Shown here one piece after another: positions 2,088 to 4,470 of a stretch of DNA of 64,000 nt. Under the pieces are notes generated by a model. The model was not told where the DNA came from, did no database searches, and saw only the letters and a program-made list of their open reading frames with translations. Every line of letters begins with the position of its first letter. The first letter of the stretch is position 1. Position numbers and translations under genes: made by a program. The stretch is from Eledone cirrhosa. Its lineage: Eukaryota. Where the stretch lies: the NCBI GenBank assembly GCA_964016885.1, contig OZ024752.1:45012001-45076000 (forward strand), read 5' to 3'.

Positions 2088-2149
<62 letters not shown>

Positions 2150-2250
2150 GTGGAAAGTTATATTTAAATTGTTGGGTTACAACTAGTAAATATTTATAAC
2201 TGATATAAAAGCACTCAACAAGTATTTGGAGTATATTTACGATATTAAAT

Positions 2251-2597
2251 AAATGGAAACTATATTTATAAAACCATATTTATTTCATTATATATATTTC
2301 AGGGATATCATATTAACAATATGCTATGCCTTCCTCAGACAAAATACAATATAGACAGTTTTATAGATAAATAGATTTGACATACCGTTCAACATCGACT
2401 TGTATTTGAAAAGTTGATTTGACTGCCAAATCAACTTTTCAAATACAAGTCGATGTTGAACGGTATGTCAAATCTATTTATCTATAAAACTGTCTATATT
2501 GTATTTTGTCTGAGGAAGGCATAGCATATTGTTAATATGATATCCCTGAAATATATATAATGAAATAAATATGGTTTTATAAATATAGTTTCCATTT
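2251..2597. repeat. Perfect 171-bp-arm palindrome carrying a hammerhead motif on each strand
   Basis: 2251-2421 is the reverse complement of 2427-2597; 5-nt loop actgc. Confidence 0.95.
2502..2567 (+). ncRNA. Type I hammerhead ribozyme motif (mirror copy at 2281-2346 on minus)
   Basis: CTGAGGA 2510-2516; stem II agg-c-ata-g-catatt/gtt/aatatg-a-tat-c-cct; GAAA 2548-2551; palindromic stem III ATATATAT; AUA triplet; stem I tattttgt/atgaaata (8 bp with 2 GU). Confidence 0.8.
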
Positions 2598-2968
2598 GTT
2601 AATATATTGTATTTATATATATAGTTTTTATTTGAAATTATTCGTAATTCTATTTATGGAATATCTCATATAAATACAGTTTAAAAGAAACAGAAAAAAA
2701 AAAAAGAAAATTGAGAAGAATGGAATGTAAGATAGGAAAATATAAAGAAAAATGAGAAAAAATCCCTGGAAAAGGGATGGAATGGCAAGGATTCTAGTGT
2801 CACAGAAGAATGTGGAGAGGATAGGGGGAGGAGGATTGGGTCTAGGGTGCGGCAATAGAGGGGCCGTACCCCGCGGACAAGACGGCAAAAGCATTAGAAA
2901 TCAAAGTCATATATCTTTGAACATAGAATGTCCGTGACCTTTGTTTATTATTAACGAAGATCAGCGCG

Positions 2969-3142
2969 TTGGATTGGCAGTATCGGTAGAAGGTCGGACA
3001 CCATGCTTTGCAGCATATAGTTACACCCCTTTATAGTCTGAGGTTAACTTTGCCTTTCATCCTTACGGGGTCGATAAAATAAAGTACCAGTAATACACTG
3101 GGATAATTGCTGGCCTTGTTCCAAAAGTAGAAACAATTATTA
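2969..3142 (+). mobile_element. tRNA-derived SINE family A (internally deleted)
   Basis: Head ggattggcagtatcggtaga, central gcctttcatccttacggggtcgataaaataaagtaccag, tail gctggccttgt..agtagaaacaattatt; many copies in the window. Confidence 0.9.
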
Positions 3143-3573
3143 GCGAAGATCAGGAAAATATCGCAAACACGAGAAACCAAGTGAAGCATTGTTTATTGGG
3201 AAAATAAAAGATTTTATTCAATGTTTGTTTTATTGAATGTAAGAGATCTTAAATATTTAATGAACAAATCGCTATAAATCATTTTAATATATAAACCACA
3301 GAAGAAACACAAAGACATTGAAAAGACGGATACATTGACATGGTGTATCTCAACTGCATATACATACGCGTACACATACACACTCATACACACGTACACA
3401 CATAAATACACATACACACATATACACACGTACAGACATAAATACACATATACACATATACACACGTACAGACATAAATACACATACACACATGCACGCA
3501 CACCTATTCACTTAGGCCACTTCATCATCTTCTGAAAGCCCGCACCTAGAGCTTTTAAATATGGTAGTGCATA

Positions 3574-4024: not shown

Positions 4025-4470
4025 AATGATTTAGAAGTCGACCCTAAGTAGGAGCAATAAGATTAAGAAAGACATGAACGACACCACAACACTTTGTTTT
4101 GAAAATTTTGAAAGTAGGTTTATAAGTATGAATTTTCATAAGATTTTCGTAGTCGTCTCTGTGGCCTAGTGGTAGGTACTGGAGACGGTGGAGATCCTGG
4201 TCTTGGGTTCAATCCTGGTCAACAGGTACATGTAACCTTTTTCAGTTTTTATTTTACAACCCATAGAAAAAAACTGAAAAAGGTTTACCAGGAACCCTAC
4301 TCCCGACCAGGATCGAACTTCAGACCAGGATCACCACCGTCTATGATTCCCCCAACTAGGCCACCGAGACAGCTACAAAAGTATAATGAAAATTGATAAT
4401 TATAAACCCACTTTCAAAATCAAAGTTTCCTAGAGCTATTAGTAATATTTAGGGTCGACTTCTGGTCATT
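4025..4470. mobile_element. Fold-back (MITE-like) element made of two convergent tRNA-like units
   Basis: agaagtcgaccctaa 4033-4047 / ttagggtcgacttct 4449-4463; inverted similarity continues to a centre near 4258; A box TGGCCTAGTGG 4162 and B box GGTTCAATCC 4206 on +, mirrored on - at 4352-4363 and 4310-4318. Confidence 0.8.

What the first reader, a model, noticed from the sequence alone, without database searches (positions are those of the whole stretch)
2251..2597. 347-bp perfect palindrome with divergent CUGAGGA hammerheads
The 171-bp arms have no visible mismatch, implying a very recent event or ongoing homogenisation. Each arm holds a hammerhead with a long stem II, an 8-bp stem I and a self-complementary AUAUAUAU stem III, the arrangement known to favour dimeric cleavage in minimal hammerheads. 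It could form a cruciform or long dsRNA, and so act as an ADAR or Dicer substrate (inference).
Basis: partly seen in the sequence, partly recalled or inferred. Interest (0 to 1): 0.75.

Follow-up and report, generated by a model that had tools for sequence, protein, structure and literature searches.

The report
Back-to-back Penelope retrotransposon ends
This mirror-image stretch is two short, back-to-back copies of the ribozyme-bearing end of a young jumping gene whose ribozyme motif occurs over 3,000 times in this genome; it is an ordinary product of how such elements insert, and its copies likely record where the element's RNA begins and where copying starts.

Summary
The palindrome is real (171-bp arms, 5-nt loop), but it is a routine insertion of a Penelope-like retroelement (PLE). 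The hammerhead has 3,223 exact pattern matches genome-wide. Longer copies carry a reverse transcriptase plus GIY-YIG ORF with Hydra-clade motifs. The insertion is really 2150-2611: the left arm has an extra 88-bp tail, as do 41 of 42 head-to-head insertions on exactly one side. Perfect arms need no homogenisation: 11 of 29 sibling pairs are also perfect, and the arm is identical to 4 other loci. Opposite-strand hammerhead pairs 100-700 bp apart are already published (PMC4209133). The palindrome cannot give an in-cis dimer, and read-through RNA would bury the ribozyme. Extras: 38-46% of subfamily arms stop within 2 nt of the base where the right arm starts, a likely RNA 5' end. A sibling palindrome carries about 30 one-strand A-to-G changes only in its paired arms. 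The scan found the two-ended pattern and editing scars before, on other DNA of this genome.

The parts
2150..2611 (.). Whole insertion: two 5'-truncated pseudo-LTR copies of a Hydra-clade Penelope-like element, joined head to head
2150..2421 (-). Left arm, long-ended copy: element positions -83 to +188 counted from hammerhead C3
   Evidence: 2 differences in 272 nt from copy L071; 97.9% to L033
2150..2237 (-). About 88-bp tail found on one arm only; interval between the family's two fixed 3' ends (+100 and +188/189)
2200..2240 (-). Small predicted hairpin just 3' of the short end; a similar hairpin follows the long end in full elements
   Evidence: folds of -5.6 and -6.1 kcal/mol on L033; weak
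2274..2354 (-). Type I hammerhead motif, left copy; predicted cut between 2289 and 2288
   Evidence: mirror of the right copy
2422..2426 (+). Loop ACTGC = first five bases of the right arm; A2422 is element position -88, the family's 5' pile-up site (TCACT context in longer copies)
2422..2597 (+). Right arm, short-ended copy: element positions -88 to +87
2494..2574 (+). Type I hammerhead motif, right copy: core 2510-2516, stem II 2517-2547, GAAA 2548-2551, palindromic stem III 2551-2558, predicted cut after A2559
2598..2611 (+). Terminal 14 nt matching the short end of a sister PLE family, so the right arm is chimeric at its tip
   Evidence: 3,650 matches of the sister-type end; 2 matches of this family's hammerhead joined to it, one being the window
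2138..2149 (.). (TA)n at the left boundary, likely target
   Evidence: family ends abut (TA)n
2614..2623 (.). Short (TA)n at the right boundary, likely target

Best explanation
The palindrome is two 5'-truncated copies of the hammerhead-bearing end (pseudo-LTR) of a young Penelope-like retrotransposon with Hydra-clade motifs, joined head to head between TA repeats, and it likely arose in one insertion event in which the element's enzyme cut both DNA strands and copied the RNA from two fixed start points. Shown: identity with the end of a 3.8-kb RT plus GIY-YIG element, two fixed 3' ends 88 nt apart used once each, (TA)n flanks, and a 5' pile-up at -87/-88. Inferred: each cut strand primes one cDNA (one from +188, one from +100); both run towards the RNA's 5' end, most likely a start site at A(-88); the two cDNA ends are then joined by repair. 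The hammerhead is cargo from the parent. Its palindromic stem III would pair with a second sense copy (the other pseudo-LTR 3.8 kb away, or another RNA), not with the opposite arm. The locus itself most likely has no host function; if read through it would form a 171-bp hairpin open to ADAR.
For: 1,601 + 1,622 exact matches of the hammerhead pattern, 0 for the reversed control. Direct copies 3.8-4.0 kb apart enclose an ORF with YRDD, DKT, RWR, CxCX5C and a GIY-YIG-type end, matching the Hydra definition (PMC8557442 section 11); 265 homologues, best 43%. 41 of 42 simple head-to-head insertions have one long and one short end (binomial p 2e-11 against 50%). Arms of one insertion differ by 0.9%, separate insertions by 4.7%. 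Nested patterns reaching -87, -88 and -89 match 273, 234 and 147 times. In print: inverted 5'-truncated copy plus one-sided tail (PMC8557442), head-to-head palindromic junctions (PMC3846280), opposite-strand hammerhead pairs (PMC4209133), both-strand cleavage and two internal initiation sites matching the tail (PMC11167929).
Against: No RNA, cleavage or enzyme data for this family. No unbroken ORF of this family among the loci held. Pfam gave no RT or GIY-YIG match for 3 of 3 ORF pieces; the best PDB match of the alignment is a retron RT at E 0.016, so the assignment rests on motifs and homologues; no tree with named clade references was built. In 4 of 4 full-length insertions the direct arm starts 422-875 nt upstream of the hammerhead, so templates longer than a -88 start exist. 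No excess of G before A(-88) (6 of 26), so no cap signature. The sister-type tip at 2598-2611 is not explained by a simple single-template event. The tail is 88 bp, not the published 30-40 bp. No short-read contig bridged the central junction (not informative).
Confidence: 0.9

Rival explanations
1. Fold-back: one cDNA (or an antisense template, as proposed for rotifer Penelope elements) self-primed and copied itself back, giving the second arm without a second priming event.
For: Arms share variants within an insertion. PMC3846280 reads such palindromes as self-priming. Several junctions are near-perfect hairpins.
Against: Copy-back does not by itself explain why the second arm stops at a second fixed end 88 nt away, on either the longer or the shorter side, nor arms whose 5' extents differ by kilobases. 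Both-strand priming was shown in vitro for a Poseidon element.
Confidence: 0.2
2. A functional, homogenised ribozyme palindrome kept by the host (cruciform, siRNA or editing substrate).
For: Perfect arms. A sibling palindrome shows ADAR-type changes once transcribed.
Against: 11 of 29 sibling pairs are equally perfect and the arm is identical to 4 of 29 other loci; the chance of 0 differences at 0.9% is about 0.21. The tip of the right arm is not homogenised. No sign of a host gene was sought beyond an ORF list that showed only low-complexity frames.
Confidence: 0.04
3. Assembly or sequencing artefact (read fold-back).
For: No listed contig spans the junction in 4 runs; perfect palindromes are a known long-read artefact (recalled).
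Against: The symmetry stops inside the element, one arm has the family tail, flanks are unrelated, and 14 sibling palindromes with different junctions follow the same rules.
Confidence: 0.02
4. A MITE or a retrozyme, that is a unit that moves as a palindrome or as a tandem ribozyme monomer.
For: Short, non-coding, inverted arms; many similar compact palindromes.
Against: Junctions differ from locus to locus, ends are asymmetric, the sequence is the end of an autonomous-type element, and no tandem monomer array was seen in the loci held. One junction is amplified (36 matches), but as cargo of another PLE.
Confidence: 0.03

Closest known systems
Hydra clade of C-terminal EN+ Penelope-like elements, e.g. 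Hydra-1_Obim and Penelope-13_HM (Craig et al. 2021, PMC8557442: passages, section 11, supplement part 2 read)
   Same: RWR/RWK, DKT, CxCX5C linker, no cysteine pair inside the GIY-YIG core, CxxC and CxH near the end, (TA)n targeting, hammerhead near the 3' end; Penelope-13_HM has a 5'-truncated inverted copy with an opposite-strand hammerhead.
   Different: Unit about 3.8 kb against generally under 3 kb; tail 88 bp against 30-40 bp; hammerhead differs from Hydra-1_Obim's (long stem II with a C-C mismatch, AUAUAUAU stem III, AUA triplet). A separate family.
Minimal and palindromic-helix-III hammerheads of metazoan PLEs (Cervera and de la Pena 2014, PMC4209133: parts 1-2 of 4 read)
   Same: Type I motif in the pseudo-LTR, long helix II, palindromic helix III, thousands of dispersed copies, and pairs 100-700 bp apart on opposite strands.
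   Different: Here pair 10.1-11.1 is A-U rather than the usual G-C, and helix I is long (15 bp with a bulge).
Poseidon element of Anolis (Frangieh et al. 2024, PMC11167929: parts 1-2 of 4 read)
   Same: Two internal initiation sites define the tail; both strands are cut and extended; AT-rich target.
   Different: Different clade; there the sites lie inside the ORF, here both ends lie upstream of the start codon (+236 from C3).
Animal non-LTR retrozymes (bioRxiv 10.64898/2026.07.22.740005: part 1 of 5 read)
   Same: Type I hammerhead, relation to PLE pseudo-LTRs.
   Different: No tandem monomers; this is the end of a coding element.

Membership tests
EN+ Penelope-like element | Single ORF with RT and GIY-YIG endonuclease between direct pseudo-LTRs | tested here: met
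   ORF pieces between hammerheads 3.8-4.0 kb apart in 4 of 4 triplets; all broken by frameshift or stop. Pfam did not recognise them.
EN+ Penelope-like element | Inverted 5'-truncated copy at the 5' end and one-sided tail | tested here: met
   41 of 42 simple head-to-head insertions; tail 88 bp
EN+ Penelope-like element | RT groups with PLE RTs in a tree | not tested
   No named reference sequences were fetched; homologues carry no clade names
Hydra clade | RWK motif, DKT in place of DKG | tested here: met
   RWR (RWK in most homologues) and SDKT
Hydra clade | CxCX5C linker; CCHH motif absent; CxxC and CxH around the last conserved E and N | tested here: met
   CNCGDRSKC, one cysteine only in the GIY-YIG core, CDLC and CKH (definition)
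Hydra clade | Insertion into (TA)n; hammerhead present | tested here: met
Hydra clade | Generally shorter than 3 kb | tested here: not met
   Unit 3,816-3,997 bp because of a 1.4-kb 3' region; given in the paper as a tendency, not a criterion
Type I hammerhead ribozyme | Conserved core CUGANGA, GAAA, UH with three stems | tested here: met
   stem III only 2 bp as monomer (costs 2.9 kcal/mol)
Type I hammerhead ribozyme | Stems kept by compensatory change | tested here: met
   Four families in the loci share the core and a C-C mismatch at stem II pair 4, with stem II openings AGG/CCT, AAG/CTT, GGA/TCC, GGT/ACC; anchored by hand, no statistical control
Type I hammerhead ribozyme | Self-cleavage | not testable with these tools
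   No assay; no RNA run was listed
Non-LTR retrozyme | Tandem non-coding monomers, each with a hammerhead | tested here: not met
   Same-strand neighbours of this family are 3.8-4.0 kb apart with an ORF between

The most novel reading that the evidence does not exclude
Compact palindromes like this one are complete two-ended copies of the 5' leader of the element's RNA: both cDNAs start at twin-hairpin sites inside the upstream pseudo-LTR and run off the transcript's first base, so genomic copies map a Penelope transcription start and both initiation sites to the nucleotide, and the arm primed nearer the 5' end reaches it more often. Such hairpins are then hyper-edited by ADAR in the germline and written back into DNA by other Penelope elements.
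Probability: 0.45. Interest if true: 0.55.

Novelty: new member of a known kind. Interest (0 to 1): 0.3.

Why it matters
The locus itself is one of many. Its value is as a marker: how Penelope-like elements make inverted copies and tails is still open in print (PMC8557442), and this family offers thousands of young copies with two fixed 3' ends and a sharp 5' boundary that give exact predictions for 5' RACE and for an in vitro reaction. The edited sibling indicates that such hairpins are ADAR substrates in cells that pass DNA on.

Tried and rejected
DNA search of the own genome with the arm found nothing, not even itself, because common words are skipped; patterns were used instead. A genome-wide count of compact palindromes could not be run, so their number rests on the first 100 listed matches (14 divergent pairs closer than 300 bp). 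Rfam miRNA matches are below gathering scores and reflect any long hairpin; rejected. No RNA holder was listed; no statement on expression. Laying contigs and RAD reads on 2140-3400 was swamped by repeat copies, and no contig bridged the centre; neither is evidence for or against this locus or its polymorphism. A cap-derived G before A(-88) was looked for and not found. L167 has the same junction as the edited copies but different flanks, so it is not their source locus. Nematis was my first guess from recalled motifs; the linker and missing CCHH fit Hydra instead. Paper searches: octopus + Penelope + hammerhead, 5 papers, only PMC8557442 relevant; ADAR/retrotransposed/hyper-edited, 0 papers at 5 of 6 terms and 1 review; twin priming with Penelope-like, 1 unrelated review, listing only. 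Supplements of the other papers were not opened and may hold similar cases.

Full report
Observation. The window holds an exact inverted repeat, 2251-2421 and 2427-2597, with the loop ACTGC. Each arm has a CTGAGGA core reading outwards (2510 on +, 2338 on -). The predicted hammerhead has a 15-bp stem I with one bulge, a 12-bp stem II with two mismatches, the palindrome AUAUAUAU as stem III and a cut after A2559. Rfam does not score it.

Family. A pattern made of the core and the ends of stem II matches 3,223 times in the 3.0-Gb genome, and 0 times read backwards. Among the first 100 listed matches, many stand as divergent pairs 75 bp to 4.3 kb apart, and four as triplets with two same-strand copies 3.8-4.0 kb apart. 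Those triplets enclose an ORF that begins 236 nt after the first hammerhead and carries YRDD, DKT, RWR, a CxCX5C linker and a GIY-YIG-type C-terminus; all four are broken. The N-terminal 527 residues have 265 homologues, best 43% identical, with Argonauta hians among the named sources. The motifs match the Hydra clade of Penelope-like elements as defined in PMC8557442 (section 11), whose supplement lists an octopus member and a family with an inverted 5'-truncated copy. Pfam found no RT or GIY-YIG domain in the three pieces tested and GIY-YIG in only 1 of 18 aligned proteins; I built no tree.

Anatomy of this insertion. The window matches the element's end on both sides. The left arm runs from element position -83 to +188 (2421 to 2150) and differs from copy L071 at 2 of 272 bases. 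The right arm runs from -88 (A2422, so the loop is its first five bases) to +87, then ends in 14 nt that match the short end of a sister family with 3,650 exact matches. Joined to this family's hammerhead that end occurs twice in the genome, the window included. Recombination, conversion or a template switch in the 40 nt shared by both families could explain it; I cannot choose. Both boundaries abut (TA)n.

Rules across copies. I grouped 124 pseudo-LTR hits from loci on contig C1 into 68 sites: 42 simple head-to-head insertions, 21 single copies, 5 complex sites that I left out. 41 of the 42 have one end near +100 and the other at +185 to +190 (40 called by the script; L035 corrected; L087 stops at +63). 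Almost all ends abut (TA)n. Most loci came from the first 100 matches, a few. Over about 165 nt, arms of one insertion differ by 0.9%, and 11 of 29 pairs are perfect; separate insertions differ by 4.7%; the window's arm is identical to those of 4 of 29 other loci. Perfection therefore reflects a young subfamily, not homogenisation.

The 5' boundary. Nested exact patterns reaching -87, -88 and -89 match 273, 234 and 147 times. So 126 of 273 arms stop at these two bases, or 91 of 238 after removing up to 35 copies of one amplified junction. In longer copies the site reads TCACT, like the initiator-like sequence noted for a rotifer element (PMC3846280, passage); Drosophila Penelope has an internal promoter in its pseudo-LTR (PMC2377424, passages). 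Arms that stop there are mostly short-ended (23 against 6; others 25 against 27; p 0.009; loci partly hand-picked). Against a simple start site: no excess of G before the A (6 of 26), and in 4 of 4 full-length insertions the direct arm begins 422-875 nt upstream, so longer templates exist. A stall at the pyrimidine tract remains possible.

Mechanism. The published picture fits: inverted 5'-truncated copies with a one-sided tail (PMC8557442), head-to-head palindromes, hammerhead pairs 100-700 bp apart on opposite strands (PMC4209133), and an enzyme that cuts and extends both strands from two internal RNA sites whose spacing is the tail (PMC11167929). I infer one event with two cDNAs, primed at +188 and +100 and joined at their 5' truncation points. 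Copy-back from one cDNA is the main rival.

The ribozyme. Four families in the loci share the core and a C-C mismatch at the fourth pair of stem II while the stems change in pairs, which argues for selection on the fold in the parent elements. Stem III is unfavourable as a monomer, and the 8-bp dimer duplex gives -3.2 kcal/mol. The palindrome does not supply the partner: a transcript has one sense motif and a perfect antisense arm, and the stem II pair probability falls from 0.86 to 7e-33. Published PLE hammerheads cut weakly or need protein. Activity here is untested.

ADAR. A compact palindrome of the same subfamily, with one shared junction, has 36 matches. Of 30 examined, 29 carry 20-35 T-to-C changes in the paired arms (three are truncated, which inflates their other differences); 29 of 85 paired T sites are changed in most copies, against 0 of 60 in the tail and loop (p 2e-8). 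The copies travel inside another Hydra-type element, and in the two carriers where an ORF lies between same-strand copies the changes are A-to-G on its sense strand. Edited sites lack C or G as 5' neighbour (1 of 29 against 18 of 56; p 0.002), which fits the ADAR preference as I recall it. The thirtieth copy has other flanks and no such changes. A-to-G hyper-editing in an inverted repeat is known from avian retroviruses (PMC12925331, passage).

Verdict. A real, young, ordinary insertion of a new family of a known clade. Earlier notes of this scan report the two-ended footprint and ADAR scars on other DNA of this genome; a sequence look-up found none for this stretch, and the listed notes did not mention the 5' pile-up. 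Interest 0.3.

Noticed in passing
L151-L180 (e.g. L151 1250-1700); carriers L181-L187: One sibling palindrome with about 30 A-to-G changes on one strand, confined to its paired arms, amplified to about 35 copies inside another Hydra-type element; some sites vary between copies, suggesting further editing.
   Followed up: yes
window 43015-43150: Second perfect palindrome (68-bp arms, no loop) with divergent CTGATGA cores, flanked by TA repeats; probably another PLE family.
   Followed up: no
window 46130-46239 and 38390-38466: Further perfect inverted repeats (44-bp and 36-bp arms) near TA repeats; pieces of the second recur in other loci (L033, L047, L008).
   Followed up: no
window 36556, 48830, 51105 (+): Other hammerhead-like motifs; the one at 51105 shares the AUAUAUAU stem III and the C-C mismatch in stem II, the one at 48830 has an ACGT palindrome after GAA.
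   Followed up: partly
L103-L108, L011 1770-2200: Sister PLE family with the same 3' end but a different hammerhead stem II; 3,650 matches of its end, also forming compact palindromes.
   Followed up: partly
window 4037-4460: Imperfect inverted repeat with short terminal repeats and tRNA-like boxes; possibly a MITE or paired SINE heads.
   Followed up: no
L182 2937-5294 (+): 786-codon open frame formed where a hammerhead palindrome joins the ORF of the carrier element.
   Followed up: no
L061 2135-7680 (-): Two long open frames (697 and 1,139 aa) that look like an intact LINE.
   Followed up: no
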